64,000 nt of DNA from Amoebophrya sp. A120 (Eukaryota > Protista > Dinoflagellata): NCBI GenBank assembly GCA_905178155.1, contig CAJINV010000032.1:57488-121487 (forward strand), in the 5' to 3' direction. The notes under the pieces were generated by a model. It had not been told where the DNA came from. It searched no databases and worked only from the letters and a program-made list of their open reading frames with translations. Made by a program: the position numbers and the translations under genes. Shown here piece after piece: positions 5,189-59,263 of this stretch. Numbering within the stretch: position 1 is the first letter of the stretch; each line of letters opens with the position of its first letter.

Positions 5189-5189
5189 G

Positions 5190-17060: not shown

Positions 17061-17530
17061 GTACTTAGCATGACAAATTCAAATTGAAACTTCACGTCAC
17101 CCGATCTTGATCTAGTTGTATCCAACTTTTGTTTCTATTTAAATTCAATCTGCAGCTAGTGCAAGTGGGTCCTAGTCCTCGATCTTCCCGCGCAGGAAAA
17201 AAGTGTGAGTTTCCACTAGCACTCGGCATGACAAAACCGTCAGAAGCAAGGAGAGATTATTCTTCCAATGATACTCGGGTTTTCGGAGGAGGTTTTCCCG
17301 ATGAATCCTTGCCCTTCTTCACGTTGCAGCTTTTGGCAGTGCTCACGACGGTGGTCGGCGCGGAGCTCGAGCGTTCAGAGGGGGCTGTTGTAGTACTCGC
17401 AGGAGGACCACCGGTTGTACTACTTCTTGCGGTCGGAGCAGTCGCAGTTGCAGCAGCCGCTGTACTACTTGCGGCTTTGGGAATGGTATGCGTTGCAAAT
17501 ATGTGCGGGTCTGGACGAATGCTTAAGTTT
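17060..17530. repeat. Dispersed duplication of a Ser/Thr-rich exon; second copy at ~24135-24575
   Basis: SSTTGGPPASTT..SCxVKKGKxSSGKPPxKTRVSLE in both copies, with shared flanks. Confidence 0.85.
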
Positions 17531-17750
17531 GTCATGCATCTTTCGGAATCAGTATCAGACTCAGATCAGTGAAAACGGTCTCTTGTTGCACTTCCCACAT
17601 GAGAAATTCAACTTCCCTGTTTGTGCAGCAAGAAAGCAAAGAGCAGCTCTTGGCGCTCATGCAATACAATTTTTCGTGTGATCCAACGTACTATACATCA
17701 CAAGTTCAACAAACACTGCTATCTAGACCCAGACATCTTTTCAATTGATA
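17487..17750. mobile_element. Introner, family A (diverged)
   Basis: TATGCGTTGCAAATATGTGCGGGTCTGG ... CTAGACCCAGACATCTTTTCAATTGATA. Confidence 0.8.
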
Positions 17751-18550
17751 AACAGGACGGCGCTTTTTCTTGGTGGAGGCGGTGAGGAGACTCTCGGCCG
17801 GCGTGGGGTCCGAGCTCGGTACAGGGGGTCGGGGAGCTTCATTTTTCTTGATGGACGGCATGGTGAAAAAGTACGAAGGTCGCGTGACGGACCTTGCCAA
17901 CCTGTTTCGATGTTTTTTCAAGAGGAGAACATATTAATGCGCAACCGGGCGAAAGAAAGGCAGTGATGCTACAAAACTACCGACGATCAAATTTGGTAGG
18001 TACAGTAAAGTCGATTGTACTTTCCGAATGACAGATTGTGAATGATATACATTGCAATGTAAACAAAATTGCGAATGATATACAGAAATGCGAATCATAT
18101 TTACCTTTGCTTCGGCCCGTCTTTGTATCGGGCTGATCACACCGGCGTCGAAGCGCTAGGCTCGGGGACAGTGTCAGAGCTGGTCACGGAAGGCGAGATG
18201 CACGCTGTGCAAGACGTTGCTCGAACACGAAGTTCTGCATCATAATCTGCATCTCTTTCTTGCCCCTGCCGGGAGTGGCGATATATCCTACTGAACAGTA
18301 GACCCATACCACACCACACCATGAAATCATTAAAAATGGTTTGTCCACATGTACATGCAACAGTTTTCTTGCATCGCAAAAATTTGCTGAGATCAACTTG
18401 CCAGTTTTCGTTCCTCGTACCACACGTCGCGCATTACAAATTTCGTTTCGCATCCAAATACTTGGATTTGCATTGGTATGGATGTACTTTTCACGTTGAT
18501 AAGCCGGCTTTCCTCTTCGGTTTCCCGTGCCTGTTTTGAATTTAGGTCAT
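17740..18550 (-). pseudogene. Decayed gene segment; paralog at ~32180-33260
   Basis: Colinear nucleotide similarity (MPSIKKNEAPRPPVPSS vs MPSVKKHEVPRPPVPSS; EMQIMMQNFV vs EMQIMVQNYV) with frameshifts. Confidence 0.55.
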
Positions 18551-23370: not shown

Positions 23371-25696
23371 TCTGTCATAGACGGTCGGCGACGCGGGGCT
23401 GCCGCTCCCAGCAGCACATCGGGCCGCCTTTCAGCTGGATGGCCTTGTTGGTCTCGTGCACAGCCTCCTGCGTTGTGGCATTCCATGCCTCGGCTATGTA
23501 TTGCAGCTTGCGGCCACTCTGGGCTCGCCGTCGCGCGAGATGGCCTTGACGTTCGTGTGCGGGTCGGCTCCAGACGCGAGGCTGGGTCTGGGACGAGTGC
23601 TCGTAGCAGCGCTCCATGCTGCAGTATTCGTCCCATGATGTGCCTGTCTCAGCGTTCGTGGTGAGGCGCGTGTTCATCGGTGGCGCATTTCCGCAGCGCG
23701 AACTTCCCGACCGTCTCCGGCGAGATATTGGGTGCACCGCTTTCAGCGGCTCCGGCGTTGCTACCCGTCGACCCCACGCGCAGCTCCCCAGCAGCGTCTA
23801 TTTCGACAGCATATATTTTCCGTCGTGCGCCATGCTTCCAGTATGAGTTCCATCCAGATATTGCACTGCGCTATCGCCCCGCCCGCGAGGCTTACTTCGA
23901 TCACCGGGTCATCGGCTGCGTCAGCGGGACGCGAAACGGCGCGTAGCTAGACCCGTGCCGCGTTTTCGAGGGCCCGCCCGCTCGCACTCAGCTCGTCCAC
24001 CAGTCGCCCCGGAATTCGCGATGGTAGTCGTGGATACCAGGCGAGGGCGCATGGATGCAACGCCTTTTCGTGGATACAGCTTCGCATAGACCTTTTTCGT
24101 GGAGGATTCATTGATATTAGGCCTCTTAATGTGTATTTAGCATGACAAATTCAAATTTAAATTTCACGTCACCCGATCTTGATCGAGTTCTTGCTCCAGT
24201 ATTGCTTCTACTTAGTTTGCATCTGCAATAGTCGTAGTTCTCGATCTTCCCGCGCAAGAACACAGTGTTAGTTTCCACTAGCGCTCAGCATGACAAAAAC
24301 TGTCAAAAGCAAGGAGAGATCTTTTTTCCAATGATACTCTGGTTTTCAGAGGAGGTTTTCCCGATGAATTCTTGCCCTTCTTCACGGTGCAGCTTTTGGC
24401 GGTGGTCGGGGCGGTGCTCGAGCGATCAGAGGGGGCTGCTGTAGTACTCGCAGGAGGACCACCGGTTGTACTACTTTTTGCGGTCGGAGCAGTCACAGGT
24501 GCAGCAGCCGCTGTACCAGTTGCGGCTTTGGGAACGGGATGCATTGCAAAGATGTCTAGGTATGGACGAATGCAGATGTTTTTATTTTGCAGCCTCATAT
24601 TCTTCATCGCCCAAACGCGATGCTGCTGGGGATTCAGCCTGTATTGCACTATGACCACTTAATGCTCAGTCTGTATTGCACTGAGTGCTTGTCTTGCAGT
24701 TGCATTCGGAAAAAGTCTGTACTGCATTATGACCACTGTCGGATAAAAATGCGGCTTGCCCGGTTTGCCATGCGCGAACGGGATGATAAAAAACGCATGC
24801 AAAATCTGTCACGCGCGCCTCGACTTTTTTGCTCTCCTGTTTCATTTTTCCCGAGCTTTTCATGGATATCCCGTTTTTTCATAGATGCAGACTTTTCATG
24901 GGCGCAACGGCTTCACATAGATTTTAGGCATAAAGACCTTTTTCGTGGAGGATTCGTTGATATTAGGCCGCGTTCGTGGCCTCAGAAAACAACTTTCCAC
25001 GCGCTGGATATCCAGCAGCGCGAGCACGCCGAGCTTCTATCGCCATGAAAGGTTCTCCCGTCGCCCCTTAGAATGCAAACGCCGTTTCTCTTGAGCGTCC
25101 CAGGCTGTACCTGTGGCAGTCTTTTTTCGCTGAAGCTTCTCTACAAAGGCGAGCGCCGGCGGGCGCGGAAGGGTTGTGCTCCTCAGTACTGTATTATCAA
25201 GCTACCCAGTACTACTGTACTTCTATTTATTATCAAGCTTTCACAAATCGAGCAAGGCGCATGTAGCTTTTTGCTTCCTCAGGAGCTCGCGCGAACCAAT
25301 TTTTTGTGATACCTGCGCGCCGTCCGCCAGGCATTGGTGTTGAGGAGGTTTTGCATCCTGTGAAAAGATCCAGCAGCCAATCTGTCACGCGGGTTTCAGA
25401 TTACTTTGTGCTCTTCAAATATTTGGCGTTGACCACGAGCGCGCGTTCCTGCGCACTTTCGGGCTGGCGCCCGGAGAAATCTCCCATGCAATCTAGGCCC
25501 CCAAAAAAGGGCTGAGATATGCGCTGATCGCACGGACAAATCTCATATTTTCGCCGGCTTCGCAGAAAACTCATACAAGCAATGGCTGTGCCGCCTACTA
25601 TGTACCTTTGGGGGCAGACCAGTTACAGAAAGCTTGCACATTCCGAAACCCAACACAGAGCTATACTTTATTTTGCAGCTTCTGCTTCATACCCTT

Positions 25697-25907
25697 GGGG
25701 ATAGATGGGGGTAGATGGGGATAGATGGGGATAGATGGGGGTAGATGGGGATAGATGGGGATAGATGGGGATAGATGGGGATAGATGGGGATAGATGGGG
25801 ATAGATGGGGGTAGATGGGGGTAGATGGGGGTAGATGGGGGTAGATGGGGGTAGATGGGGGTAGATGGGGGTAGATGGGGATAGATGGGGGTAGATGGGG
25901 GTAGATG
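25697..25907. repeat. 10-bp microsatellite (GGGG(A/G)TAGAT)n, about 21 copies
   Basis: Read directly. Confidence 0.97.
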
Positions 25908-28900
25908 GCGCACATTCTGAAACCCGGCACAGCGCTACATTTTATTTTGCACCTTCATACTCTTCATCGCCCAAGCTCGATGCTGCTGGGGATTCCGATT
26001 CAGTCTGTATTGCACTATGACCACTTAATGCTCAGTCTGTATTGCACTGAGTGCTTGTCTTGCAGTTGCATTCGGAAAACGTCTGTATTGCATTATGACC
26101 ACTGTCGGATAAAAAACGCGGCTTGCCAGGTTTGCCATGCGCAAACGGGATGATGAAAAACGCATGCAAAATCTGTCACGCGTGCCTCCACTTTTTGCTC
26201 TCCTGCTTCATTTGTCCCGAGCTTTTCATGGATGCTCCGGCTTTTCATAGATGCAGTTTTTTTCATAGGCGCAACAGCTTCGCATAGATTGTAGGCATAG
26301 GGATCCAGGTCGTTCCAGATATTCCGCCCATCTTCGCTCCTCTTGGCTCCAGCCAAGGACCCGGACAACCGCCGCAGTCGTTTTCTGAGGATGGGGCGGG
26401 GGGCTCTCGCTCAAAGTGCCGCTATGGGGGGCTGGCCTGCTCGGGGGGTCTTACTATTCAGCTGGGCCGAAAAAGGCTCAGAACTTGGCGGGGACGCCGG
26501 CTCGGGGGGGGGTTCTTATGCAGCTGGCGTGGCTGAATAAGAACTACTTTACTGCGGTGCTGGATTAAGTTTATATACAAATCACCCAAGCCCCTGCCCC
26601 AGAAAACAACTCTTCGTAGCAATTTACTTCCTCAGGGTCACAGGCACACCAATTTTGTGCGATAAGTACCTGCGCGCCGTCCGCCCGGCATTGGTGTTGA
26701 GGAGGTTCTACATCCTATGAAAAGACCCAGTAGCCAATCTGTCATGCGGGTTTCAGATTACTATTACTTTATTTGGTGCTCTCCAATCAAACATTTGGCA
26801 TTGGCCACGAGGGCCTCTTCCTGCGCACTTTCGGGCGCACGGACAAACTTGTCATGCAAACTAGGCCTCCCACAAAAAAAAAAGGCTCAGAATAATGCTG
26901 TAGTCGCGCGGACATACAAACAAATCTCATATGTTCGGCGGCTGTGCAGAAACCCCATACACACGATGGCTGTGCCGCCTCCAATGTTCTTGTGGAGGCG
27001 GGCCGCTTACAGAAAACTCGCAGATTCTGAAACCCGGCACAGGGCTACATTTTATTTTGCACCTTCATCGCCCAAACGCGAGGCTGATTGGGATTATCCG
27101 AAAGCGCTTCGCCGCCCCTGGCGAAATTTTGGTGATAAGCGAGCACTTTGTCTCGTCCTCGCCACGCGCTGCGTTTGCCAACTCTGTGGGACGTATATTT
27201 ATATAAGCGTTCTAGTAGGGGGGTCCCCATGCGAGTAGTTGGCCGCGACGGATAATACTACTGCCGTGCTGGCTGGGGGGGGTCTTATGCAGCCCTGCTG
27301 GATAAGACCTTTCTTGGGGAATGGGTTAGACAAATGCAGCGCGTGTTTTGATGAGGTAATCGGCAGACGCTATTGAGCAGGTAGACAGTCCGTATGGCCG
27401 GCCGAAGAAGCTGCGTCCGGCTTATCAAGCCGCAGGAAAACCACCCCCTTCCCGACAGTAAAAACACGCTTGGGCTACATGAGTCGCACAACGACAGCAG
27501 TATGGACATAGAGATAAATAAGTGGGATACTGCGTTGCACTACAGATATAGTGAATTGCGACTGCGGTTTTCGCATCGCAAGAGATTTTCTTTCTCGTAC
27601 ATCGAAGGTGGATTTTTGTCCGTGATATGCTCCTCCACAATCGGGATACTTTTTTGTTGGATATATGTGCCATCCACGAGTTCATCGAGCACCCGCGGTC
27701 ATCGAGCAGCCGCAGCTCCACTAGAATGCTTTGCGAAAAAGTAGCCCCATATCAGAAGAAAACATGCCCCATATCAGAAGATATTGCAGTATCATTTTGG
27801 AACGGAAAATGGCCTTCCGATACTGCCCGAAAAACGTCAGCGCATACAAAAATTTGCTCCAACGAGAAGTACAGGCGCTTCCACATCATTTTCTTTTCAA
27901 TACAAATTCACTTTTCATCACGAAATGTTGAGCAGACGGAGTTTATTGTCTTGTGATAGCAGCGGCAGGTGGAGGCGTCTGACACCGTCCCACAGCTCCA
28001 CATCTTCCAGCACGATTGGCGTGCGAGCTTGGCACTTCAGCCCGCCTAGCGAAGTTACCGTTGCGGCCACACTGTTGGTTCCGTCCGTCGCAGCTCTCGA
28101 TGGGCCTGACGTGGCCATGCTCAGCGGCGCACTTGTGATCGTATTCTTTTTTCTCCGGCGGAAGGAGGCTTTGTGTCATGGACGGTCGTGGTCGACACGA
28201 AACTACCGCTCCTTCAGTTGGATGGCCTTGTTGGTCTCGTGCGCGGCGCTACGGATCGCAGCAGCTTTCTGTGTTGCAGTATTCCGTGCCCCGCCGGCCT
28301 ATTGCAGCCTGCGGCCGCTCTGGGGTCGCCGTCGGTCGGCGACACGGGGCTACCGCTCCCAGCAGCACGTCGGGCAGACGCCTTTCAGCTGGATGGCCTT
28401 GTTGCTGGTCTCGTGCGCGGCGCTACGGCTGGCAACAGCTTCCTGTGTTGCTGTATTCCACGCCTCGCTGGCTTCTCAAGCCGCAGGAAAACCACCCCCC
28501 TTCCGACAAGCAGGGCTACATAAAATCCAAAAAGAAATAAGAGTGCGGACCAGCGGGGGCAGGGCAAATATTCAAAAAATTTGTGATACTGAATAGCGAA
28601 CAATGAATTTCGCGCGAAACGAAAAACAGCATGACAAATTCGATTTCCTCTACGATCGGGGTACTTTTCTGTCGGATATAATATGGATGTCTTTGCCAGT
28701 TGTCTGGCCATATGACGGTCGCGGCCGCACTGTCGGCTCCATCCGTCGCAGCTTTCGATGGGCCTGACATGGCCATGCTTAGCGGCGCACTTGTGATAGT
28801 AGTTTTTTTGTTTCTCCGGCGGAAGGCGAGTTTATGTCGTAGACGGTCGGCGACGCGGGGCTACCGTTCCCAGATGCACATCACGCAGACGTCTTTCAGC

Positions 28901-29617
28901 TGGATGGCCTTGTTGGTTTCGTGCACAGCCTCCTGCTGTGTTGCAGCATTTCATGCCTCGGCTATGTATTGCAGCTTGCGGCCGCTCTGAGCTCGCCGTC
29001 GCGCGAGTTGCATTACTTCCCGCAGCCAGCACCTTTTAGCATAGTGGCCTTGCTGGTCTCGCGCGGGTCGAATAGGTCTCGCATTATGTGTGCGAGAATA
29101 GGTCTCGCATCAGCCTCCGCTCCATCGATCCCTACTGAGAGGTCGGCGTCACGGGAAGTGCGTTTTATATTTTTTAGCACCTTTGCCCGGGATCATGGCC
29201 TGCGGGGTCGCGCGCGACTCGGGTCCAGACGCGCGGAAGGATAGTTTGGCTCGCAGTAGCGCTCCACACTGCAGCACTACTCCATATCGCGCTCGTTGCA
29301 GTGTGCGTGCTGAGAGGTGCTTCGTCATCGGTAGCACTTTTTCTGACACGCTTCTCCGAATTGGCCTCCTAGGTCACGCGCGGGTCGGCTCCACGCGCGA
29401 GGCTAGTAGCGCTCGCAGCACCGCGCCATATACAGCGCCGCCGTCGTTTTTGCGGGCAAACACCGGCGCGATATCGGCCACGAGCGTGATCTCGAGCTTG
29501 CTTTCCGCGGACGATGATGGGCCACTCCTGTGGCAGATTCTGTATCCTCCGGCAGCGTCAGCGGGACGCGAGGATGAAACGGCGTGTAGATAGACCTCCG
29601 CATGGTAGTTGTACACG

Positions 29618-29690
<73 letters not shown>
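29618..29690. repeat. (GAT)n microsatellite, about 24 copies
   Basis: Read directly. Confidence 0.97.
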
Positions 29691-29691
<1 letters not shown>

Positions 29692-30269
29692 TTACCCAGT
29701 ACCGTCAGATTTTTTCCGTCGAGCAGCATTTCCGCCTAGTTTGTCGCCGTTCTGCACCAAGTACTCATTCGTAGCAGTAGCTCCTGAGTTTTCCAGGGCC
29801 TGATTGTCTCCACTGTAGCCACGTTGAGGCGCAGTTTGTGCCACGCTTTCCATCTAAACGGGCGGAACCCGCGACACACATGTCTGCGGCCGAGTAGTTT
29901 TTGGCGGGTAGTTGTGTGGAAGAATTGGTCGTGGCGGATGAAAGGGAAGCTTTTTCGTGATTGATGGCGCAGAAGTGTGCGTTTATAATTTTAGGAGCCG
30001 AACATAATTCACACCTCACGCCTGCTCTAGCGGTGCTCAAATTTTGAACGACCTTTGACGCGCGAGCCCATACGGCGAGGCGGTATTCTTTCATGCAAGC
30101 AGAGTTGACGAGATGTAGATTTGGCGCATTAGACTTTCGAGCAGCAGCACTCTTGAAACGATATATCAAACCTAGCTCCAGAATAAACATATATAACGGT
30201 CTTGTAACCGATTATCTGGCTAAATTTTGTTTTCATTGGTAGCACCTTTGCCCGGGATGGCCTCCGTGG

Positions 30270-30977
30270 TCACGCGCGGCCTCCGCTCCATACTGCAGCA
30301 CTTTTCCATTTTGCGTCCATGGCAGCGTCCGCACTGAGAGGCGCTTTTTCATCTTCGGAAGCACCTTTTTGCAGCGCGGGTCCCCCGACCGTTTCCGCCG
30401 AGGTCGGAATAGCGGCATTACCACTTGCAGCAGCTCCGGTGGTTCTGCCCGTCGGCTCCGCATGCTCTGGCATGCTCCCAGCAGCGTCGTCTTCGGCAGC
30501 TGTCAGTGCGTCAGCATACTTCCATTTCAGGGGCCTCCCAGATATTACGTCGGTATCTCGCTCACCGAGGTTCACTTCGATGACCGGGTCCAGTGCGACG
30601 TCCGCGCGCAGAGGCAGCTTGTGCTGGTCTATTCGCTCCGTGACCACTTTGTGTGGCAGGTACACATCGACGATGCGCGGCTTGGTTCTACCACTTCTGT
30701 GAAGCAGTACATGCCGGTAGATGCCGCCCCCGTCGTGCCACAAGCTCCCTTCGCCGACGTCGTTTTTGTGGGCAAACGACGGCGCGCTATCGACCGCGAC
30801 CGTGATCTCGAACTTACTGCTGTCCGCGGACGACGATGAGCCACGACTCCTGTGGATTTTTCTATTCGCAGCTGTATCTTCCGGCAGCGTCAGCGGGACG
30901 CGAAACGGCGTGTAGGCAGACCAGTGCCGCACTTGTGATAGTAGTTTTTTCCTCCGGCGGCTGCCGCACTGGTACAC
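30270..30977 (-). pseudogene. Second GH2 N-terminal fragment, near-identical to 22700-23280
   Basis: YTPFRVPL...EITVAVD...LWHDGGGIYRHVLL. Confidence 0.6.
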
Positions 30978-32236
30978 TTCTTTTGGCCGGCTGATCCCCT
31001 TTCGCCGTCGTCGTTTTTGTGGGCAAACGCCGGCGTGATATCGGCCGCGGCCGTGAGCTCGAGCTTCCTGTCCGCGGACAGTGATGGGCCACTCCTGTGG
31101 ATTCCATTAGCAGCTGTACTTATCCGGCAGCGTCAGCGGGACGCGAGGATGAAACGGCGCGGAGGCAGACCTCCGATTCCAGATATGGTAGTTGTACACG
31201 GCAGATTTTTTACGTCGAGCAGCATTTCCGCCAATTTCGTCGCCGTTCGGGACCAAGTCCTCCTTCGTAGCGGCAGCTTGCCTTTCCAGGCCCAGATTTT
31301 TCTCCGCTGTACTTAGCCACGTTGAGGTGCTGCAGTTTGTACCACGCTTTTCATCGGGGCGGACGGAACCCGTGACACACGTCTGCGGCGGTGTAGTCTT
31401 TGGCGGGTGTGTCCACGTCGTAGTTGTGTGGAAGGGTTGGCAGTGGCGGATGAAGAGAAAGTTATTCAATGATTGATGGTCGACAAGTCTACGTTTCTAA
31501 TTTTAGGAACCGAACATAATGACAACTCAGGCCTGCTCTAGCAGTGCTCAAATCTTGGACGACCTTTGACGCGCAAGCCCAGACGGCGAGGCGCAATTGT
31601 CTCATGCAAGCACAGCTGCCATCAAGCTGCAAATCTAAATTTTGTTTCACATTGTGAACTTTCGAGCAGCACTTCTCTCGAAACGCAATATCAAACCTAG
31701 CTCCAGATAAATTACATATCAGTCGGCGCACCACCTTCACCGATCGCCACGCAGTGGCATTGTGGCGTCGAAGGTAGCCTCGGGGTGGTTTGCGTGGACC
31801 TGCTACGCGCACACGTTGCAGTGAGGGAACACAGTGGCAGTCCTGTAGATGAAGCCACAGCGCTGTAGACATTCTGCGATGGATGCAGGGCACTCTCCCC
31901 TTGCGGCGACTGACGTCTCTCTGCCTGCATGTCCATGAAGTACGGGGGTAGTCCGTCACCCCGCCCTCGTGGACCATCCACCCGCCGCTCATCATCACTG
32001 CGCTCCACCGCCTTTCCTGGCGCATCACTCCATCCGCCGCCCCCATCATGACCTGGTCGACCACGGAAGTTCTCCACTGCAGCGGCAGTTAGACCGATAC
32101 ACTTACCGATACCTTTACCGACATTCTCATTTGTTCCTGCGGCAGTTGGACCTCTTCCAGACGCAGACACTGTTGCAGTTGATAAACGGGACGTCGCCTG
32201 TAAGACCTTGTTCTTAGTGGAGGCGGTGAGGGAGAC

Positions 32237-32493
32237 TATGCATTGCAAATATGTCTGGGTCTGGAAGAATACAACTTGTCACGCTAACTCTCGATCACAA
32301 AATCTGTATTGTATGAGCGCCAAAAGTTGCCCAGTTCTTGCTAGGAAAAAAGCGGATTTCTCATGCGGAGCGGCATGAGGAAGGTCTCGCAAAATCTGTA
32401 ATGCTTTTGTGTCCATACCAGACCATTTGTGTGGTCCGCGAGATGCATCACAAATCTCCAATCTTCCAGACCCAGACATATTTGCATTTGATA
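32237..32493. mobile_element. Introner/MITE, family A; absent from the paralogous site at 17787-17791
   Basis: GAGAC[TATGCATTGC...GCATTTGATA]GAGAC versus a single GAGAC in the paralog. Confidence 0.95.
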
Positions 32494-34779
32494 GAGACTC
32501 TCGGCCGAAATGGAATTCCGAGCTCGGCACTGGCGGTCGGGGAACTTCATGTTTCTTGACGGACGGCATGGTGAAACAAGACGAAGGTGTGGTTGTCCTT
32601 GGAAACCTGATTTGATGATTTTTCGGAGGAGAAAATTATGTGTAGAGTCGGGGCATACTAGTGCTTGTATAGAACTGGCGATGATCAAATTTAGAACCGG
32701 AAAAAAAAATTCTGCATGACAGATCGTGACTGTTACACGGAAAAGCAATCGATTTTACCAGCACAACGTTGCGGGGCCTTCGTATCAGACTCATCACACC
32801 GGTGTCGAAGAGCTAAGGTCGGGGACTGTGTCAGAGTTGGTCACGGGGACAGAGAGACGCGACACGCTGTGCAAGACGTTCTTCGAAGACACATAATTCT
32901 GCACCATGATTTGCATCTCGTTCTCGTCCCTGCCGATGGTGGTGACATATGCTACAGAAAAGTACACCCATACCATACCACAACATGATTTGTCGACATG
33001 CAACTGTTTTTTCGCATTAGAAAGAAGCCCCTTCGACAAGACGGATTTCATGCCAGTAGCGCATTACAAGTTCCTTGTACACTTCGCGCATTAGAAATCA
33101 CCGCTTCGCATACTGCAAGAACACATAATACAGAGCTCAGTTATGCGACCGCATTTATTATTGTCATTTCTATTGGTATGATCGCTGTAGCTGTAATTTT
33201 CACGTTGATATGCCCCGCTTCCTTTTTGTCTTCGGTTTCTCGTACCTGTTTTTGAATTAGGTCATTGTCAGAAAACGAGGATGTGGTGATATACCACCTT
33301 GAGGGACTGTTTTCCAATTTTTTGTCTAGGAAGAGAAGACTAGGTGTAGTAGTAACCCGAAAATGAATTGAAGCAGAACTACCGATGATCAAATTATCAA
33401 ATTTATACGGTACACAAAAAGAAAAGCTCTGGTGGATGTGACACAGAACGAGCGCAATCATCTTCAGTAACCTGTACCTTCCGGAGTCTTTGCATCAGGC
33501 TGGTCAGACCGGTGTTGGAGAGCTGGCCACGGCGACAGTGTCGGAGGTGGTCACGGCGGGCGATATGCAACCTGCGCAGGCCGCGCAAGCCGCGCAGAAC
33601 AAAACTTCATTTTTTGTTATTTTGCTGCGCAGAGTATCCTTTTTATCTCTTCCCTACGGTGTTTGGTTTGGATTCGGAAGTCGAGCAAGGCAGAAAACGC
33701 AATACAAATCCTTGCGAAGCACAAAGACGACGACGAAACAAATCATGGATCCAGTACGAAACACGTTAACACCAAACACCGTATGACGAATAAAGCTAAG
33801 AACATCGAGCTTTTGAATGGTAGAATGAGTTTGTAAATCTAGATCTCGCTTTGACAACAGATACTCACAACAGATTTTTTGGTCTTCTGTAACGGTCTTG
33901 TGACCGATTATCTAAATTTTGATCTTGCCGCGCGCACGGTCGCATTTCATCTTTGTCTACAGTTTCCCTTCGTCCTTGCTCTCTTTCCACCGCATCCGAA
34001 GAACACTGATGCGGGGGCTCTCTCTAATGGGAGCTGCCGATACAACAACAGCTCTTACTACTGCACGGCGGCAGCACACTTTTTCACCTGCCTGCCAAAA
34101 CGACAAATAATCACTACGCAGATCGCTTTTGTTTCGATTTTTGATTTTATCTTTCCGGCAGCCGTACGTAAGTATGTTTTTACACTACGAAGTGTTCATG
34201 TCTTCACATTGAAGCTGCTTTCTGAATGGTCTAAATCTGCCTGTTGCGCTCGATCCTCCTACTCGCTATCCTAGGATGATACACGGAGTGAAACTCGACA
34301 TAAACAGCTTTCCTTCGACTGTGAAGTCCGGCTTTCTGTGAGGTCTACACATGCTTTATGAGATTGGTGTTCAAGACTATATAGATCGAAGCGCAAGTTC
34401 AATTTTGCAAGTCGTCCAACAACACGGGCACGTCAGTCACAGCATCTTCAGGTCCAATACGATGTCAGCAGAAGGTCTCTTCAGCTGCCGTCCTATCCAT
34501 GTCCAGTAAGTACCTTGACAATTTTGATTTCGGATTCATCCAGATTTGTGTTATTCTTTCAGTCTCAGAAAATCAAGAATCATTTCAATTTTTTCACATC
34601 TCCACGATGAAACGTCTAGCACGGCAGAAGAGAAGTACTACGGGATCAGTAGAACTACGGAAGCATCATCAATCGTTCCATCACTTTCTCCATAGAATCT
34701 CTTCAGGCTGCATCACAGACGTGAAAAAATCCTGATACTAAAAGATTTTGATCGTAGGATGAGCATCAAACATTTCAAA

Positions 34780-39783: not shown

Positions 39784-42179
39784 CTAGAAACACGAGTAAT
39801 ACTCGTTCTCCCAATACGAAAACGGCACTGGATCGCCTTCTTGCCATCGGCGCCAGCGGTAGACGATGTTGCTTGTAGTTTGCGGTCGTGCATGACAAGC
39901 TGATCGCGACGACACTCCCACCCAGCGCAACAGCATTTGAAATCCGTAGTCCAGACTGACCCGCTCCTTCCAGTTTGCCAGACAGGAGTTCTTCGTCGAG
40001 AAAGGATGAATGATTTTCACACGGCGATCAGGCACGAAGTCACTGCCAGCATCCACTGTTCCGTTCTGCGGCGTATCTGTCTGCGCAATCAATTCCGTGC
40101 TGTCCTCCGTGCGGTGGGGCGTAGGCGAACTGCAGCCACCTGCGTTGGAGATTCCATTCCCGTCTGGCTCGTTCCTGCAATACAAATTCCGCACGTAAAC
40201 CGGCTGCGACCAGTGCTCCCAGGTGGTCTGGTTCGTGGAAATGAGGCAGCTATGCAATGCAAAACCATCGTACTAGTAAAAATTGCATTACAAATTTCTT
40301 CAGCATGAGAAATAAAATTTGTAATGCGGATTTACGTTGAGAAAAGAATTTGTAATGCATTATTGTAATAAATACGAATACGATACTTTTGCACAGGGTA
40401 GTAGCAGTGATACAGCAATAGTCCACACGTGAAGGCCGTGAAGGGTAAGAGCGCAAGCAGCACCAGGAATATCTTCGTCTTCGAAGATATCATGCTCGGC
40501 ATTTCCGGGTTGAAAACCAGGTTTTTCCAGTGCAGAAAGCACAACACAACCGCCAGGAACAGTAGCAACACGAACCTCCCATGGTTCTTTTCGCCGACAC
40601 CGTATGCATTGCAAATATGTAGTCTGGGTCTGGAAGGTTGTAACTTGTCATGCTGTCTTTGGATTCTAAAAGAAGTTTGTGTTGCATGACCAGCAAGAGG
40701 AGTCCAGTTTGCTCTACGCGGAGACCACGAGGGCATTTCTCATGCGGAAGAGGCATCAGGAAGCCATCTAAAAATCTGTGATGCTAGGTCATGCATTACA
40801 GGCGTCATGGGTCACGCAAGTTTATGCATGACAAACCTGGCAATCTTCCAGACCCAGACGTATTTGCATTGGATACAACGCCGCCGATCCAAAAACAGTG
40901 GTGATCGAAGGTCAGGACGCACTGCTTGCTGACCCGACAGTGCCGTGACCGGAGAGGGCAGTAATGGTGGCATTGGTGACAGTAATGGTACTTGAGACCA
41001 CCACTTCCACTTCTACCAGGCGTTGATCTAGCTACTCGTCCATCGCATCGACGGCCCGCTGCATCTTCCTCGTGTGTCGAGACTATCCTCGTACGATGAT
41101 AGTCTCCGGCAGCAGTCGTCCTTTCGGGCACCGATGATGAGACTGATATTTCATCCTCGTACAACTGATGGTCAGCTTTGACGTTTTTCAGCAGGGTGTC
41201 TTCGCCCGGTCTGGAGCTAGCAGTCCCTGCTTCCTCCTCCAGCAAGGATGTTGCGCTCTTCGGATCGTCGAGAGTGGGCCCTTCGCCGCCAGCATCCGAT
41301 GGACGCCAGTATTGCGGCTCCTCCAGCACAAGCTGCCGTCCTTGAAAAAACCCGGGGTGGTACCGCGTCGTCCAGTAGATGGCGAAGAATAGAAGGTGTA
41401 AAACCATCTCCAAAAGCCCAGGGAGTGTCAGAAAACTGCAATTCTGATCCCCGTCACCAGGACATCCGCTGTTCGATGAACTTCTTCCGGCGGTCCTCTG
41501 TGCGGTCACGCTGAACCCGTAGCTGCACGTGACAAGAAACGCCACCATTCCGAAGCAGAAGTAGAAAACCTGGTCAGTTTGATTCAACGAAGATCCGGAT
41601 TTTGTCATGCGCCTTTCGCAATAGAAGTTATCGTAGATGAGCAGGTCGAGGTCTTGGTGCTCGCCGATCAGAAGCTTGCCGGTCTTGAAGTCTTATGCAT
41701 TGCAAAAGTAGCATTTGATCGTACCAGTTGGAGAAAATGCATGACAAATCTCGCTTGAAAGCTAAATCCGCATGACAAACGCCGGTTTTCATGCTGAGCA
41801 GATTTGTCATGCTGCACAGATTTGTCATGCTCATGCCGAGCGGATTTGTCATGCAGCTTGGCATTGACTAACTATCCAAGTACGATCACAAAACAATTTT
41901 TGCACAGGATATTCTTCGTGCGAGCGATTCCTCGATCCCCAGCTCTTTCAGCACTGAGTCGTCCCACTGTGGAATCGGAAGTTTTTCAAGAGAAGCAGTT
42001 GCTCGTCCAAAAGCGGTGCTCACTCCTCCGTTCGTTGAAAAATCCTTTCGCTCTACTTCTTGCTGTTCCTCCGGGAATCTGTCATGCGGTTCTTTTTCCT
42101 GCTCCACGCAACCTCCTTCCTCCGCAAAGAGCACCGTCCGCACGGACTGGAGATCGTGGTCTCGGATGAACGAGGGCAT
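39784..42179 (-). CDS. zDHHC protein S-palmitoyltransferase; 3 introner introns
   Basis: [44 protein letters not shown], four hydrophobic segments, NQTTWE and HPFS...NW motifs; introns 41694-41911, 40603-40875, 40251-40400; start uncertain. Confidence 0.92.
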
Positions 42180-42988: not shown

Positions 42989-45900
42989 TTAGTCGTCTAT
43001 TGGTAGGTCTTCCTGCTTCAGAAAGCTGTGGGAGAACGTATGCAGGGCAAGCAAAAGACGTCTGGATCGGGAAGATTGCCAATCTTGCCATATAAGAGAT
43101 GTCGTGTTCGACTGGAGGTAAAAGGCGGCTGCTTTTCCTGGTCATGCAATACAGTTGTTCGCTTGTCGCATCACCCAGACCTAGCATCACAAAGTCGGAA
43201 TCTTCCGGAGGACCCAGACATGAAACATTCGCAATGCATAAAGGGCTTTCTGTGCCGAGATGCGGTCCGTGGGGTCGAGTGTCAGGCACTTCTCACAGAT
43301 ATCAAATGTAAAAATGTCTGGGTCTGGAAGATTGCCAGGTTTGTCATGCACATTTTGGATGACTCCTGATGTCTGTGATGCATGCCCTAGCATCACAGAT
43401 TTTGTGAGGGCTTCCTGATGCCTATACCGCATGGCAAATTCTCTTTCCGTGTAGCAAAACTTGGACTCTCTTTGCTGCTCATGCAATACAGATTTTTTTA
43501 GAATCCAAAATCCGCATGAGAAGTTGATGGATTCTTCCAGACCCAGACATTTTTACATTTGATAACAGAGTTTCCGAAACTGTCTCGCGTAGCTGCCCGC
43601 CTGCATGATCCGGCTCTGGGTTCTCTCAGGTTTTTTTCTTTTCTGTATGAGAGTGCACAACCCCCCCGGTTGCTCTCATTTGTCATGCAAAATTGCAAGT
43701 TGGCTTTGAGGAAGTGGAAGATGTCATGCAGAAGAGATACTACATTAACATTTTCGCTTTTGTTTCTGTTGCGAGGTCGTTCATGACAACCAAAGGAGAC
43801 AGCTTGAAGGAGTAGAATTGTGCACTCTCATACTCCTGCCAGCGTAGACGAAATCCTTTACCTTTCCCAATAGCGGTGGGTGGCAAGGCTTGACTGCCCG
43901 GGAGTACAGCTTCCCGTCCTTATCTTCGCGAATATCCGCTGCGCGTTGCTCGAGGAAGAATTCGGTCACTCGCGATTCCTTCGCCCTCTTATCCTGTGCA
44001 AAAGTTTCGTACTCGTAGTAATAAATCGCAGTTACGCATTATATACCTGTTTCTTAAGCTAAACCCGCATTACAAATCTATATTTCTCATGCTGAGGAAT
44101 AGGAAATTTGTAATGCATTTATACGAGTACGATGCTTTTGCAATGCATACCGCTTCAACAAGTCATCGCTGAACCCGCCACCCAGAGTCTCCATCTGCGA
44201 GACATGCTGGAGATCCCGCGTGTCAGGGTCGTCTTCGGTATGCATTGCAAATATGTGTTTGGGTCAGGATTTGTCATGCGAGTTTGGAAGTGCGAGAAGA
44301 TCTGTAAAATGCAAGCGTGCGCTTGAGCAACTTCTTTGTCATGCTGTGAAGCTCAGTTATTTGTCAGCCGTTTTACAAATGAATCTGCGATGAGCCAGGT
44401 CGCAAACTTCGAATTTCTGATACTACTACGCAGTACATGTGACTACTCTGCAACGCAACCTGCATCAGACGCATGAGATTCCAGAGGTGGACACAGATAG
44501 GCTCACAGTGCGTATTTCGTAGTCCGGTGCACCTCTTCGCCCAAATACAGCTCCAACAGAATGCTATGAGAGTGTCAGGATTGAAATCGACAAAGTTGAA
44601 ATAAGTTGTATATGCATAAAATGGATACCAATTGGGCCCACAGTGTCTAGTCGCTGCATGACAAATTTTGTCCGTACTTACCGGAGCCCAGTGTGTCATG
44701 CCGTTTAGGGCGAAGGGGCTCCCCTCTGTGATGTTAATCAGCAGCCCAATTACCGACCCTTAGCAGCGCCACAACCTGCCGCCCTTGCGTCCTCTGCAAT
44801 AGAGGCAATGTCTGCGTTGGATTTTATGCATGGCAAACTCTTTCAACTCTGACGATTTCGATCCTGACACAACCATAAATGCACCCGAAGGAGTAGACGT
44901 CGGTTTGGGTGTTCCATTTCATGCCGAGCATCACCTCGGGACTTCTGTAGTATCGTGTACTTATTTCGTTGAGTCGCTCATATCGCGGATCGTCTTCAAA
45001 GACCGCGCCCCCGCAGTCGATAATCTTGAAGCTGGGAAGTAGCGGGCGTCGGTATTGGCCGTCCTCCCAGTGCCCGAGCTGGAGCACTCCCTTCTCGTCC
45101 CGGTGCCTCGGAGTCCCTTCTCGTCCGGGTGCCTCCTGGCCACTGAAAGTGGCCCGGTGCTTCTTTTCCCAAGCTCTCCACCTGGTTCCGCCGGCCTTCT
45201 GCGCCAGTTGCTCGATGTGCGATCGGACAGGCGGACGGCACGGGCTAGTGCCCGGGAATTGCAGGAGAATATTTTCTATGCATTGCAAAGGCATCGCACT
45301 CGCACTAATTGCAGCCACGCATTACAAATTCTTTGCTCAAGGTAAGTCCGCATGACAAATCCGCTCTTTCATGCTGAGCAAACATGTGAAGACGCGATGA
45401 CAAGTACTAGCGCGATGCTTTTGAAATGCATACTTTCTGGCTTCAAATCCGTATGCACACAGCCCAGGCTGTGCATAAAGCACAACGCCTCGGAGCATCA
45501 ACTGCAAAAATTATGTTTGGGCCTGGAAGATTGCCAGGTATGTCATGCATATTTTGCACGGCCGGCGATGCCTGTACTTAATGCATGACCTAGCATCTTT
45601 ACAGATTTTTGCATTGCTTCCTGATGCATACTCCGCATCAGAAGTGTTCTCTTCGCGTAGCACAAGTCGGAGCATCACAAGCTGCAAGCTTCCAGACCGC
45701 GACACACTTGCAGGGGATAGGAAGCCGTCGCGCGCAATTGCTTGAATATCTCGGAGGAACATCCCTCGCAGTTTATTTCCTAGAAGCAGCTCCCACAGGC
45801 TGCCGTATCCTGCAGAAAAGCACTTCCGACATACCAGAGAGAAACAAAATTGTCATCGCTCTCTTCTGTGTTCCAAAAAGTTCTCCCGCAGCGGCAATTC

Positions 45901-49240: not shown

Positions 49241-49439
49241 GGCTCGGCTTGTGTCTGAGTCTTATTATTCCTGACACAAAAATACCTTTCGACACGGTTT
49301 TGGAACGGATTGGATCCACAGAAAGAAAACGGGTCGTGTATAGACTGGTTGATACTGCTGTTAGTGTTCTTACCCTACACAACTACTAAGGAGCACCAAC
49401 GTGGTCGTGCAATCGACGTTCTGTTGCAGGTTTAAACTT

Positions 49440-51050: not shown

Positions 51051-54000
51051 TCAGTCGTGTGAGGTCACGGGTCGGTGAAAAAAATTGTGTGCTAACGCCC
51101 TGTATGCAATGCAAAGATGTCTGGATCATCTGGAAAAACGGAAGACTTGTCATGCAGGTTTCATCCTATGACCCGTGAAGATTCCTGGCACAAATAACAA
51201 ACTAGCAAGATAGATTCTGTGAGATGTGTGTCATGCCTCTGCATGCGACACAGGTTTTTGCACGGTTGCAGACTTAGCATGACAAGTCGCGTCCTTCGAG
51301 ACGTAGACATCTTTACAAGGCATACCTTCTGCGACGTGATTCGGGTGGCCGGGTCCACGGTGAGGCGTTATCAAATGTAAAAATGTCTGGGCCTGAAAGA
51401 TTTCTAGACTTGTCATGCAGGTTTTGCATGAGTCTTGATGTCTGTGATGCGTGGCCTAGCATCACAGACTTTTTGAGGGCTTCTTGATGCCTATTCCGCA
51501 TTACAAATGCCATCTCAGCGTAGCAAAAAACGCATTCCCTTTGCTGCTCATGCAATACAGATTTTTTTACAATCCAAATGCAGCATCGCAAGTTCCAATC
51601 TTCCAGACCCAGATATTTTTACATTTGATAGGCGGGTATCGAATCCAAGATCTCTGGGTCTGGAAATGGATTTATGTTGCTGAGTCCTCATCTTGCAACA
51701 TAAGTATACACACTCGTCGCTTGTACGGCACTCCGGCATGACAGGGTTCTATTTCGCGAGATGTGTAATGAAGATTCTTTCATTCCTATATTTGCATGAC
51801 AAACGCCCGTGCAGCATAGCAGAAAATCTCGCCACCGCCAATCGTCTCCATGCATGACAGACACAGATCTGCTCAGTGTCCTTTGTTCAAGTCGTGCATT
51901 ACAGATCCAGACCCAGATCTTCGATATTTGCAATGCATAACACGCTTCGCAAATTGACCGGAAGAACTCGGTATGCAATGCAAAAGCATCGTACTAGTAT
52001 AAATCGCATGACAAATTTTCTCAGCATGAGAAAGAAAATTTGTAATGCGGATTTAACCTGAGAACGAAATTTGTAATGCATGAATGCGATTAGTACGAGT
52101 ACGATACTTTTGCACAGGATACTCGGCGTGGCCACCTGGTTCGCCTCCGGCGATCATGTTGGTATCAAGTGTAAAAATGTCTGGGTCTGGAAGAATGCGA
52201 ACTTGTAATGCAGATTTTACATGGCCCGTGACGTCTGTGATGTATTCCCTGGCATCACAGATTTTCTGAGTGCTTCTTGATGCCTATTCCGCATGACAAA
52301 TGGCCTCCCCGCGTAGCAGAAACTGGGCTCCTCTTGCTGGTCATGCAATACAGATTTTTCTAGAATCCAAAATTAGCATGACAAACTTGCATTCTTCCAG
52401 ACCCAGACATTTTTACATTTGATAGTTGGCTAGCGTGTCTTATTGCGAGGAAAAATCCCCCCTCCCAATATCGAAAAGGAAATTTGTGCTGCTGGATTTG
52501 CGTACACAAATCAGCTCTGTCTTGCGTACAAGGATGGAAACGGCACCCGTGTGGCGCATTGTACAGCGAGTCTGTCATGCTGTTTCGCCTATTTCAGACT
52601 TGTTGCGCATGTTCCGCTGCTGGCCGGATGCGTACCCAAATAGGGGCAGAGTATGCCGACAAGCTCTTACTGCAATAGAAAGTTCATTTGTGTAGGTGTA
52701 CGTCATGCAGCAACACGAATTGATGTCTTTTGAATTATGGGGTGGGGGATTGTTTCACTTTGATATGTCTACGGCCTCCTCTGGTGGTGTACAAGACCGC
52801 ACCTTATGCATTGCAAATAAGTATTCTGGGTCTGCAAAATAAGTAGTTGCACAAAGACGGCGTGGCACAGATGCATCAAAGATTGTGTAAAAGCTTGCTT
52901 CTTAATGCCGAACCCGCATGTTGACACATGGCAAATTATCGGGCTTATGCAACACAGATTTCTATTTGTGCGATCCAGCTGTTAGTTCAGCATGACACGT
53001 TGCATAATGTTTTTCTCAGACCCAGTTCGATGCTTTCCATGCGTAGACCTGTCGTGAGTACCACATCTTGTCGAGCCCTTGCACCGGATTCTTCCATCTT
53101 CGAAAGGCCCCGCGAAACTTCGACTCCCGCCCAGTTCGCAAAAAAGCATCGCTGAAGCATCCGCCTATGGTCTGCATCTGCAGCATCTGCTGCACATACC
53201 CTAGGTAGTTGCTCGGCGCAGAATCACGGCTGCGGTCGCTACCGGAGCCCTCTATCGCAAGAAAAAACTGTTTCACTGTAAACTTGTAATGCAGAAAATG
53301 CATCTACCGAGAAGTGTTTGTCTTGCTACACATGCAAGACAATGGATTTTGATCTGTGTTTTCCCTTAGGAATCTCGCATGGCAAATTTTCTCTGTCATG
53401 TAGGACAAACTTGTGATGCAAAATAACTTGCAAAATTCTTACAGTGAAACACTTTTTTCGTACGATACCCTCGCTTCCACTGCTAGTGACGTTCAAGATA
53501 TCACCGAGGTATAGCTCCATTAGTATGCATCCGAAGGAGTAGACATCCGCTCGCGCGTCCCACGCGGCTCCAATCATCACTTCGGGGCTGCGGTAGCTTG
53601 GGGTAGAAATTTCCGCGTTGTTTGGTCGTCCGTGCTCGTCCTGAAAGATTGCCCCACCGCAATCGATATGGATTGTAAAAATGTCTGGGTCTGGAAGAGT
53701 GTGAACTTGTCATGCAGGTTTTCCATGACCCGTGAGGTCTGGAATTCGGGGCCTAGCATGGCAGAGTCTGAGAGGTCTCTTTCATGCCTATCCTGCATGA
53801 GAAACTACCTCCCGACTTGGTCAAAACTGGACGACTTTTGGTAATCATGCAACACAGATTTTTGCATGCTGCAGATTTAGCATGACAAGTTGCAATCTTC
53901 CAGACCCAGACATTTTTACATTTGATAATCGATTATCTTGATTTTCGCAACTGTCGGACGCCGGTACTCGCCGTCTTGGAAGCACTATCCTGAGGAAAAA

Positions 54001-57000: not shown

Positions 57001-59263
57001 GCGTGATTCGCGTCTCTGCGCTTGTATCCAATGCAAAAATGTCTCGGTCTGGAAGAATGCAGATTTTTGTCATGCTGTTTTTGCACGACACAAAATGTTT
57101 GTCATGGAAGCCCTACCATCACAGACTTCAAGAAGCTTCCGCATTGCTTAATCCGCATGACAAATCCCCCATTTTACTGACAGGAATTGGGCACCTTTTG
57201 CTGCCTATGCATGAGAGATTTGTCTGTGTTGTGAAATGCGCATCACAAGTCCGCATCCTTCCAGACCCAGACATATTTGCAATGCATAGCTTGATGGGTA
57301 AATTGAAAGCGTTCGCGTCTACGAATGGAAGATCGGTCGCGGCCTGGTTGTCGTCTCTGCGCTTGATAATTCCCGCCTCGTTCATCCGCGATCCGACGCT
57401 GCCTGCTATCCTCCCACTCTCGTCGTTTCGCTCCCCTCCTGCTCCCCTCCTCCTCCGGCTCGTTTCGCTCTCGTCGTCTCTCTCCCCCGCGGCTTTCCCG
57501 TCCTCCGGATCGCTGCCTATCGCCGGCCCGCCGTACATTTTCGCGTCCTAATATCCACTGCAAACATGTGTGGGTCTGGAAAAGTCGTGTAAAAGTCTGT
57601 CATGCAGGTTTTGGAGTATAAATATTCTCGAATTATTTGCACATCGCTAATGCAAAAGTAGCAAATTACAGGCTTGCGCGAGGTCTCTTGGTGCGCCCCA
57701 CTGTCTCGCATGAGAACTGCGCTGTTTGCGTAGCGGAATACGGGCAGCTCTTCGAGCCTCTGTACTACAGATATATAATATGTGTGATGCAGAGTTTGCA
57801 TTACAAGTTGAAGTTTCCGTCCACCATCCTTCCAGACCCACACATGTTTTCCAGCCGTATGCTGCTCCTGCTGACGAGTCTGCCCTCCTTGCCGTCCGTT
57901 TCTCTTGCTTTCACTCCGTCGTCTACCTCGGGTTTTTCTGCAGTGTAAAAGTATTGCACTCGTATAAGTGCATTACAAATTTCCTCAGCATGAGAAATAA
58001 AATTTGTAATGCTGATTTACCTTGAGAAAAAGATTTGTAATGCATGATTGCAATACGAGTGCGATACTTTTGCACAGGATAGCTCTGCTGCGCCGGTCCT
58101 CCAGATCGCGAGCACGACCTCGTCGCTCGACAGCATCTCCGACACTATCCTGTGCAAAAACTTCCCCACCCCGTAGTGAAGCATGGGGATTGGCTACACA
58201 AAGCCAACGTCTTTTGGCTGTCGCGCATGACAAGTTTGGGCTCGCCGTGTAATAGCGTTTTCCTTTTGTAGCTGCATCACAAATCGATCCGCTCATGCTG
58301 ATTCTAGCATGACAAACTGCCAGACAGCATAATACAGAATTCTCTTCATGGGGCTCTGTATGGCAAAACATTATGAGGCTTGCGAACTTGCATGACAACT
58401 ATGGGCGGGGGACGTTTTTACTCAGGATAACCACCTCCGGAGGTCCGCCTTCTGCTACGGGTTCCACGTCGGCTGCGTTGTCCTTTCTGGTGGTTGGTAT
58501 GGAAAGAAAAAAAAGTGCTGAAGAAGTTGTACACTGTGCTTTAGGAAAACAAATCCAAGGCAGGCAGTACCAGTTTCAACATCCGCGTTTTATTTAGTAA
58601 CCTCTCCTATGCAGATGATGCATGCCGGGTTTGCATGCTGAAGCTCAAGTCCCAAATCATGTCAACGCGTAATAAAACTGCAAAAGCAATTTTTTTCTAT
58701 GCGTACTCGAAGACGACGTCGCTGCTATCACGAAGATGGCCCCCTCGTCGAACGTCGTCACTGCGTGAAAAGCGAGCGGCGCCGGGTGCAGCGTGCGGGC
58801 TGGGAGATGGCCGCGTCGTGCCCCGTTGATTCGTGCGGGGTTTGCCTTGATGACCACGGTGGTCGTGTTGGTGGTGGTGGTAGGCACTACTCGACGGCGC
58901 CGCGTTTCCGGTTTGCGGCTGGCTCACGTGCCGCGCGCCGTCGTTCTCGTTGCCGATGCTGTCCGCATGCCCGGGCAACCTGGGCCATCCGAGCAGCTCT
59001 GCGATTTCCGGCGAAGCTTCGGGGAGGCCTTCCATGTCCCGTAGCGTCAAACTGAGATAAAGAGCCGTTTCTAGCATGTCCACATCTTCGCCATCTCCTA
59101 CCGCGTTCTGAAATATCCGCACCTTGCCCCGGATGTCGGCTTGCTGGTTGATCGTTTTAAATAGCGCGTCGTAAGTTCTCCGCTTCTCGGCGTCGTCCTG
59201 GTACTGCCTGAATCTGCGCCATGCCCTCCTATATGCGGCTGAATATGCTGCGTGAAACTGCAT
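51051..59263 (-). CDS. CMGC protein kinase, CLK/LAMMER-like (K2); Arg/Ser-rich N-terminus; 23 introner introns
   Basis: LGDGTFGRV, YAAKVI, HTDLKPENIL, IIDCG, STPSYRSPEV, DVYSFGCILMELY, CLTVDPATRITSQKALAHNF; introns start at 58498, 58146, 57937, 57552, 57025, 56738, 56423, 56090, 55719, 55398, 55215, 54822, 54381, 53986, 53667, 53253, 52805, 52441, 52163, 51972, 51637, 51369, 51103; start codon uncertain. Confidence 0.9.
51972..52121. mobile_element. Introner, family B
   Basis: Perfect CTCGG/CTCGG. Confidence 0.94.
52163..52424. mobile_element. Introner, family A
   Basis: Perfect GTTGG/GTTGG. Confidence 0.94.
52441..52765. mobile_element. Introner, family E
   Basis: Perfect TGTCT/TGTCT. Confidence 0.9.
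53253..53467. mobile_element. Introner, family C
   Basis: Perfect CCCTC/CCCTC. Confidence 0.94.
53667..53927. mobile_element. Introner, family A, in the kinase DxG motif
   Basis: Perfect ATCGA/ATCGA; splits IID|CG. Confidence 0.94.
53986..54264. mobile_element. Introner, family D (279 bp; TATCCTGAGnAAAAACGTACCCAC)
   Basis: Flanks AGCAC/AGCGC; sisters 56090-56368 and 63016-63294 have the same length. Confidence 0.94.
55215..55364. mobile_element. Introner, family B
   Basis: Perfect TGGCT/TGGCT. Confidence 0.93.
55719..56039. mobile_element. Introner, family E
   Basis: Perfect CAGCA/CAGCA. Confidence 0.93.
56090..56368. mobile_element. Introner, family D
   Basis: Perfect CTTCT/CTTCT. Confidence 0.94.
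56423..56680. mobile_element. Introner, family A, in the kinase Gly-rich loop
   Basis: Splits LGDG|TFG; flanks GTCGT/TCCGT. Confidence 0.9.
56738..56938. mobile_element. Introner, family F
   Basis: Perfect TGGAG/TGGAG. Confidence 0.92.
57025..57288. mobile_element. Introner, family A
   Basis: Perfect GCTTG/GCTTG; the paralogous internal repeat at ~57352-57366 lacks it. Confidence 0.94.

What the first reader, a model, noticed from the sequence alone, without database searches (positions are those of the whole stretch)
32225..32510. Filled/empty site pair shows a 5-bp target-site duplication
Seen: the paralog at 17781-17800 reads GGTGAG-GAGAC-TCTCGGCCG, whereas here it is GGTGAGG-GAGAC-[257-bp element]-GAGAC-TCTCGGCCG. 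A second case is 57025-57288 versus the empty internal repeat at ~57352. Perfect TSDs share no sequence (CTTCT, ACCCG, TGGTC, GGGGT, ACAGA, AATGC). Inference: DNA-level insertion with a 5-nt stagger, so TA is part of the terminus and not a mariner-type TSD. The occasional TGT ends (7706, 13472, 14759) hint at a retroviral-integrase-fold enzyme of the Ginger/Tn7/Mu type (TGT...ACA ends, about 5-bp TSD), but TAT...ATA matches no superfamily I recognise.
Basis: partly seen in the sequence, partly recalled or inferred. Interest (0 to 1): 0.8.

Follow-up and report, generated by a model that had tools for sequence, protein, structure and literature searches.

The report
Known Amoebophrya introner, 5-base duplication confirmed
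A 257-base mirror-ended insert in the marine parasite Amoebophrya A120 sits between two copies of a 5-base target that a sister gene copy carries once; this confirms an already published class of transposon-born introns, likely inserted by a cut-and-paste enzyme that is still unidentified.

Summary
Observation confirmed. 32237-32493 (257 bp, TAT...ATA, 27/30-bp TIR) lies between two GAGAC; the paralog has one GAGAC (17787-17791) and no TA. One extra G beside the site makes this pair slightly imperfect, but cleaner filled/empty pairs exist (53667 vs 45016; eight elements in a second assembly), all 5 bp. Flank identity peaks only at k=5 (window 7/22 perfect; second assembly 152/187). The window is Amoebophrya sp. 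A120 (100% protein match). The element fits the published A120 introners (Farhat 2021: TAT+7 nt+AAA ends, 5-bp repeats in Fig. S19), and Gozashti 2025 Dataset S2 already lists an A120 family as 'Ginger, 5-bp TSD, TA/TA termini'. The TGT hint fails: the three TGT ends are orphans and TGT is no commoner than other point variants. No transposase was found. RNA-like contigs skip element+5 at 15/15 joints, in one register (1 nt before, 4 after) and both orientations; the focal copy itself showed no listed joint. The scan noted this class and register earlier on other pieces of this genome. Verdict: real, already known; the enzyme and splicing mechanism remain open.

The parts
32237..32493 (.). 257-bp non-autonomous TIR element (introner), TAT...ATA
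   Evidence: folds at -111.7 kcal/mol with flanks, z -8.1, 0 of 200 shuffles
32237..32266 (+). left TIR (TAT + 7 nt + AAA signature)
   Evidence: 27/30 match to right TIR; signature as in PMC7789003 section 11
32464..32493 (-). right TIR
32232..32236 (+). left TSD copy GAGAC (extra G at 32230-32232 run relative to paralog)
32494..32498 (+). right TSD copy GAGAC
32185..32606 (-). host exon interrupted by the element (32494-32606 and 32185-32236); coding status inferred from the paralog
   Evidence: 73% aa identity over 26 aa to paralog exon, shared AG acceptor; no RNA joint listed
17787..17791 (+). empty paralogous site, single GAGAC
17751..17901 (-). uninterrupted paralogous exon
17487..17750 (.). 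older element shared by both paralogs (TSD decayed to AATGG/AACAG)
24538..32184 (.). the same older element in the second paralog: its two ends 7.6 kb apart, both flanked by AACGG; interior is local duplicated DNA
57025..57288 (.). second filled site, TSD GCTTG
57361..57365 (+). empty GCTTG in the next tandem unit
53667..53927 (.). third filled site, TSD ATCGA, in kinase exon (KIIDCGGA after removal of element+5); skipped as element+5 in RNA-like contigs
45016..45020 (+). empty paralogous kinase site (GTCGA), no indel
   Evidence: P0001, P0002
20376..20642 (.). element with decayed TSD (1/5) whose RNA-like joint 20371/20644 fixes the cut register exactly

Best explanation
32237-32493 is a non-autonomous terminal-inverted-repeat element of the published Amoebophrya A120 introner class, flanked by a true 5-bp duplication of its target, and was likely inserted as DNA by a DDE-type cut-and-paste transposase acting in trans with a 5-nt staggered cut. 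Shown: sharp TAT...ATA ends, constant 5-bp duplication without sequence preference, empty homologous sites, no coding capacity, insertion in either orientation. Shown for sister elements, inferred for this copy: the insert is removed from RNA together with exactly one TSD copy, so the message returns to its pre-insertion length. Inferred: the cut lies 1 nt before and 4 nt after the element in transcript sense (N|TAT...ATA NNNN|), likely made by a relaxed spliceosome positioned by the paired ends, with TAT supplying intron positions +2 to +4. Inferred: this copy was gained after the gene duplicated. Not shown: which enzyme; a retroviral-integrase-like (Ginger/TDD-like) one is my leading guess at about 0.4.
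For: k=5 only: window 7/22 perfect, mean 0.70 vs null 0.24; second assembly 152/187 perfect, 145 distinct 5-mers, at most 3 perfect at k=3, 2 at k=4, none at k=6-11; with TIR subfamilies pooled and no TSD criterion 20/48 (window) and 285/445 (loci) perfect at k=5. Filled/empty: automated search gave 19 rows, 12 rows for 5 real elements all with overlap 5, the other 7 being self-hits in tandem arrays of L025/L031; 3 more indel-free pairs between L012 and L033, two of them reciprocal and 8 nt apart; kinase pair 53667/45016. Orientation: spliced 20376 is inverted relative to spliced 43300 and 53667, and 51972 relative to 16537 and 43990, all in minus-strand genes. RNA-like joints: 15 of 15 single-element joints skip element+5; two tandem pairs skip the sum (472, 575); only 'one left-TSD base kept' fits all 15 ranges; first intron base G 9, T 6, C 3, A 2 and 13 different acceptor dinucleotides over 20 elements. 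Gain rather than loss: perfect TSD and 27/30 TIR, while the neighbouring shared element is decayed and kept in both copies. Species: exon 100% identical to a protein named Amoebophrya sp. A120.
Against: No transposase in 49 window ORFs or 94 locus ORFs; six longer elements with this TIR hold no ORF over 151 aa; Farhat et al. found no transposase in A120 and argued against general transposase mobilisation. No RNA joint is listed for the focal copy (66 joints hidden; low depth). The focal pair has a 1-nt indel at the site and its reading frame does not discriminate: element+5 gives an open frame, but element+4 or +7 keeps the paralog's LTASTK locally. The register is pinned exactly by one contig (20371/20644); RNA status of X3/X5/X7/X8 is a guess, they are one sample, and all host genes are on one strand.
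Confidence: 0.88

Rival explanations
1. The elements are solo LTRs or derivatives of an LTR retrotransposon whose integrase makes 5-bp duplications.
For: 5-bp TSD without target preference is typical of many LTR integrases (recalled); fam38 ORFs resemble Copia/Gypsy integrase.
Against: 30-bp TIRs, near-palindromic 110-150-bp members and many unrelated interiors; no pair of ends up to 12 kb apart enclosing a coding retroelement in window plus 694 kb of loci.
Confidence: 0.05
2. The elements spread through RNA (reverse splicing of the excised intron and reverse transcription), and the 5-bp repeat is a splice-junction repeat.
For: They are spliced with one repeat copy; no transposase found.
Against: Both orientations occur and are spliced; family similarity stops at TAT/ATA, not at the splice points; an element sits inside another element with a 5-bp duplication (L016).
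Confidence: 0.03
3. For the focal pair only, the 17.8-kb copy lost an ancestral element precisely, so the pair does not date an insertion.
For: No outgroup copy of this exon was found.
Against: The older element 36 bp away is retained in the empty copy; the focal TSD is perfect while the exon flanks differ at about 20%. Loss with one repeat copy still gives k=5.
Confidence: 0.04

Closest known systems
Amoebophrya sp. A120 introner elements (Farhat et al. 2021, PMC7789003; seen: abstract, sections 10, 11, 12, 16, passages, supplement legends; figures not seen)
   Same: Same organism; IR begins TAT + 7 nt + AAA; direct repeats of 3-5 nt, Fig. S19 legend says 5 bp; non-GT-AG; length near the 240-nt mean; hairpin.
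   Different: The paper gives 3-5-nt repeats and variable splice sites and argues against transposase mobilisation in A120; here filled/empty pairs fix 5 bp and decayed TSDs point to one cut register.
A120 introner family 38 (Gozashti et al. 2025, PMC12130899; seen: main-text passages, SI passages, all 58 A120 rows of Dataset S2)
   Same: [quoted passage not shown]
   Different: fam38 is 808 bp with 49-53-bp TIRs; families of 250-280 bp with ~30-bp TIRs are filed 'TIR DNA, Unknown' with automated TSD 2-6 or none. The main text says fam38 lacks Ginger termini and TSDs although the table files it as Ginger. I could not map this element to a family number.
Ginger2/TDD (TDD-4, TDD-5; Bao et al. 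2010, PMC2836005; seen: passages)
   Same: TIR DNA transposons; TDD-4/5 make 5-bp TSDs; a 252-bp non-autonomous Ginger2 is listed.
   Different: Ginger termini are TGTNR; most TSDs are 4 bp with CCGG/CCGT or RTATAY preference; here TAT and no preference.
Tc1/mariner MITEs (recalled)
   Same: Short TIR elements; TA next to the ends.
   Different: Empty sites carry no TA and a 5-bp repeat lies outside it.
Micromonas/Aureococcus introners (review PMC11282704, passages)
   Same: Non-autonomous TIR elements that become introns using the TSD.
   Different: Those use canonical splice sites; here first base and acceptor are free.

Membership tests
Amoebophrya A120 introner elements | Occurs in the A120 genome | tested here: met
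   118-aa exon 100% identical to a protein named Amoebophrya sp. A120
Amoebophrya A120 introner elements | IR starts TAT, 7 variable nt, then AAA | tested here: met
Amoebophrya A120 introner elements | Direct repeat of 3-5 nt at the borders | tested here: met
   GAGAC
Amoebophrya A120 introner elements | Repeated, non-coding, hairpin-forming | tested here: met
   (118 locus matches over 200 nt)
Amoebophrya A120 introner elements | Removed from RNA without GT-AG | tested here: inconclusive
   Met for sister elements (15/15); no joint listed for the focal copy
Ginger (Ginger1, Ginger2/TDD) | TGTNR termini | tested here: not met
   TAT in 390/410 termini, TGT in 3; definition
Ginger (Ginger1, Ginger2/TDD) | 4-bp TSD with target preference (5 bp only in TDD-4/5) | tested here: not met
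   5 bp, 145 distinct of 152; length agrees with TDD-4/5 only
Ginger (Ginger1, Ginger2/TDD) | Gypsy-integrase-like DDE transposase in the autonomous partner | tested here: inconclusive
   None in 49 + 94 ORFs; whole genome not held
Tc1/mariner | TA target duplicated | tested here: not met
   Empty sites
LTR retrotransposon (solo LTR) | Paired direct copies around gag-pol | tested here: inconclusive
   None in window plus 694 kb; under 1% of a genome
Tn7/Mu-type | TG(T)...(A)CA ends with 5-bp TSD and TnsB/MuA enzyme (recalled) | tested here: not met
   Ends are TAT...ATA; enzyme not testable

The most novel reading that the evidence does not exclude
All TAT...ATA families of A120 are moved by one unclassified transposase lineage with its own signature (TAT ends, random 5-bp TSD, spaced subterminal GCATNACAR boxes) that is not Ginger, and the host removes them by a sequence-blind ruler, 1 nt before and 4 nt after the hairpin, precise enough to join a 1-nt exon between tandem elements.
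Probability: 0.35. Interest if true: 0.65.

Novelty: already known. Interest (0 to 1): 0.22.

Why it matters
The class, its 5-bp repeats and an integrase-like candidate are published, so the finding mainly confirms. Its use: filled/empty pairs turn the published '3-5-nt direct repeat' into a fixed 5-bp TSD, which favours transposase-driven insertion against the 2021 paper's doubt, and decayed TSDs give a fixed splice register that makes the unexplained GT-AG-independent splicing testable.

Tried and rejected
No whole genome is held, and loci could not be searched as genomes, so a genome-wide search for an autonomous element was not possible. TIR pattern in viral contigs: 0 hits. Long elements in loci (481-1888 bp, 6 found) have no ORF over 151 aa; end pairs up to 12 kb with a perfect 5-bp repeat gave no coding candidate; unpaired ends shared no long interior. 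Pfam: no DDE/rve hit in 49 of 129 window ORFs or 94 of 163 long ORFs scanned from the loci list (L020 ORF added). The 7.6-kb span 24538-32184 was considered as an autonomous element and rejected: interior is copies of neighbouring DNA, no Pfam hit. L032 looked like a shared locus but only the elements align. No RNA holder was on record; X10 raw reads and X9 did not cover the focal gene. Reading-frame test at the focal site was inconclusive. Donor/acceptor counts in Dataset S2 (NT and AN both ~69% in fam2) cannot settle the register because perfect TSDs let aligners slide. tblastn of the two kinases against the loci returned nothing, so the second assembly's relation to A120 is untested. Paper searches: (the last found 0); none of the passages read states the 1/4 register; Roy et al. 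2023 was seen only as a citation, and figures of both papers were not visible and may show more.

Full report
Observation. The element runs 32237-32493 (257 bp), begins TAT, ends ATA, has 27/30 matching terminal bases and GAGAC on both sides. The paralog carries GAGAC once at 17787-17791, followed by TCTC, with no TA. Homology is clear on both sides: 68.6% over 548 columns to the right and 78% over 134 columns across the emptied junction. The filled copy has one extra G beside the TSD, one of three small indels between the paralogs, so this pair alone is good but not perfect. The second case holds with the empty GCTTG at 57361-57365. All six listed TSDs were found.

Is five the real length? 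For 22 paired elements of this TIR family, flank identity is 0.70 at k=5 against 0.24 in permutations and near background at other k; 7 of 22 are perfect. A pattern scan of metagenome contigs returned loci from a second assembly (150 loci, 694 kb with overlaps, selected for an exact TIR match and so for young copies). There 152 of 187 short elements have a perfect 5-bp repeat, 145 of them distinct, with no strong base preference. Pooling all TAT...ATA subfamilies without a TSD criterion gives the same peak. An automated filled/empty search gave 19 rows: 12 rows for 5 real elements, all overlap 5; 7 rows were tandem-array self-hits. It missed the focal pair because it was ungapped. Three further indel-free pairs lie between L012 and L033, and 53667-53927 interrupts KIIDCGGA, which is intact in the paralog at 45016 and in P0002. 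TA is therefore part of the terminus.

The TGT hint. 7706, 13472 and 14759 have no partner end within 600 bp. Among 410 termini in the loci, TAT 390, TAC 4, TGT 3, TAG 3, CAA 3. TGT is ordinary decay, not a trace of TGT...ACA ancestry.

Context and age. The host is a duplicated minus-strand gene. Both copies share an older element next to the focal site: intact but decayed at 17487-17750, and split by 7.6 kb of locally duplicated DNA at 24538...32184, where both ends keep AACGG. The focal element is private to one copy and pristine, so gain after duplication is the likelier order (inference). Whether this copy is still functional is open: the frame test is ambiguous and no joint was listed there.

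RNA. Runs X3, X5, X7, X8 are guessed to be RNA, are contigs and come from one sample; they join a canonical GT-AG intron at 19779/19933, as transcripts should. Of the listed joints (15 rows in each lay; 66 and 12 hidden; rows from cross-mapping among repeats and the unresolved 16711/17275 left out), 15 of 15 single-element joints skip element+5, and two tandem pairs skip the sum of both; 43637/43834 and 52162/52766 fit by eye. Where TSD copies differ, only one register fits all: 1 nt before and 4 nt after the element in transcript sense. It is exact at 20371/20644, and the first base and acceptor are free. Elements in both orientations are skipped. The focal strand folds into an end-to-end hairpin (z -8.1). 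A relaxed spliceosome placed by the paired ends is inference; Farhat et al. report U1 undetected.

Enzyme. Not found: no DDE or integrase domain in 49 window ORFs or 94 locus ORFs, no coding long element, no viral hit, no whole genome to search. A subterminal GCATNACAR box, a lead from e1-10626416, occurs 928 times in 308 elements against 5 in one base shuffle, mostly 31-32 and 39-41 nt from the ends, as expected of transposase binding sites (inference).

What is known. A window exon is 100% identical to a protein named Amoebophrya sp. A120. Farhat et al. 2021 describe A120 introners with TAT+7+AAA ends and 3-5-nt repeats, and 5-bp repeats in the Fig. S19 legend. Gozashti et al. 2025 describe family 38 as a TIR element with integrase-like ORFs, Ginger-like but with other ends, and note '5-bp TSD, TA/TA Termini'; similar-sized 30-bp-TIR families stay 'Unknown'. 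By Bao et al. 2010 the element is not a Ginger member (TGTNR ends, mostly 4-bp TSD), though it may work like TDD-4/5. Other agents of this scan reported the class and the 1/4 register on other pieces of this genome; I had derived the register before looking (note), and their notes are not independent support.

Verdict. Interest 0.22.

Noticed in passing
window 24538-32184: The two ends of one older element lie 7.6 kb apart with matching AACGG flanks; the interior is duplicated neighbour-gene and element fragments, splitting the host paralog.
   Followed up: partly
window 16038-16505 and 51369-51939: Two tandem element pairs exactly 6 nt apart; RNA-like contigs skip the sum of both elements+5, which under the 1/4 register implies a 1-nt exon.
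   Followed up: partly
window 52430-52440: An 11-nt exon between elements 52163-52424 and 52441-52765 is kept in RNA-like contigs.
   Followed up: partly
elements in window and L001-L150: Subterminal GCATNACAR box, 928 copies in 308 elements vs 5 shuffled, at preferred distances from the ends.
   Followed up: partly
L012:2434-3060 and L033:64-328: Reciprocal filled/empty insertions 8 nt apart in two close gene copies, each with a 5-bp duplication.
   Followed up: yes
L016:1641-1751: 111-bp element nested in another introner family, with 8 empty matches in other copies.
   Followed up: yes
window 42900-56100 and 61500-63000: Cluster of minus-strand protein kinase paralogs with DCG in place of DFG (CLK-like, label recalled), dense in introners.
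   Followed up: partly
window 7864-8763; 40335-41692: Ankyrin-repeat gene and DHHC palmitoyltransferase gene, the latter interrupted by 40603-40875.
   Followed up: partly
window 43631-43637: One RNA-like contig has an extra T in this T run; possible homopolymer error in the assembly.
   Followed up: no
window 1200-6500, 15300-15800, 21800-22200, 49440-50500: Tandem repeat arrays (the last with a 54-bp period) seen in ORF list and self-BLAST.
   Followed up: no
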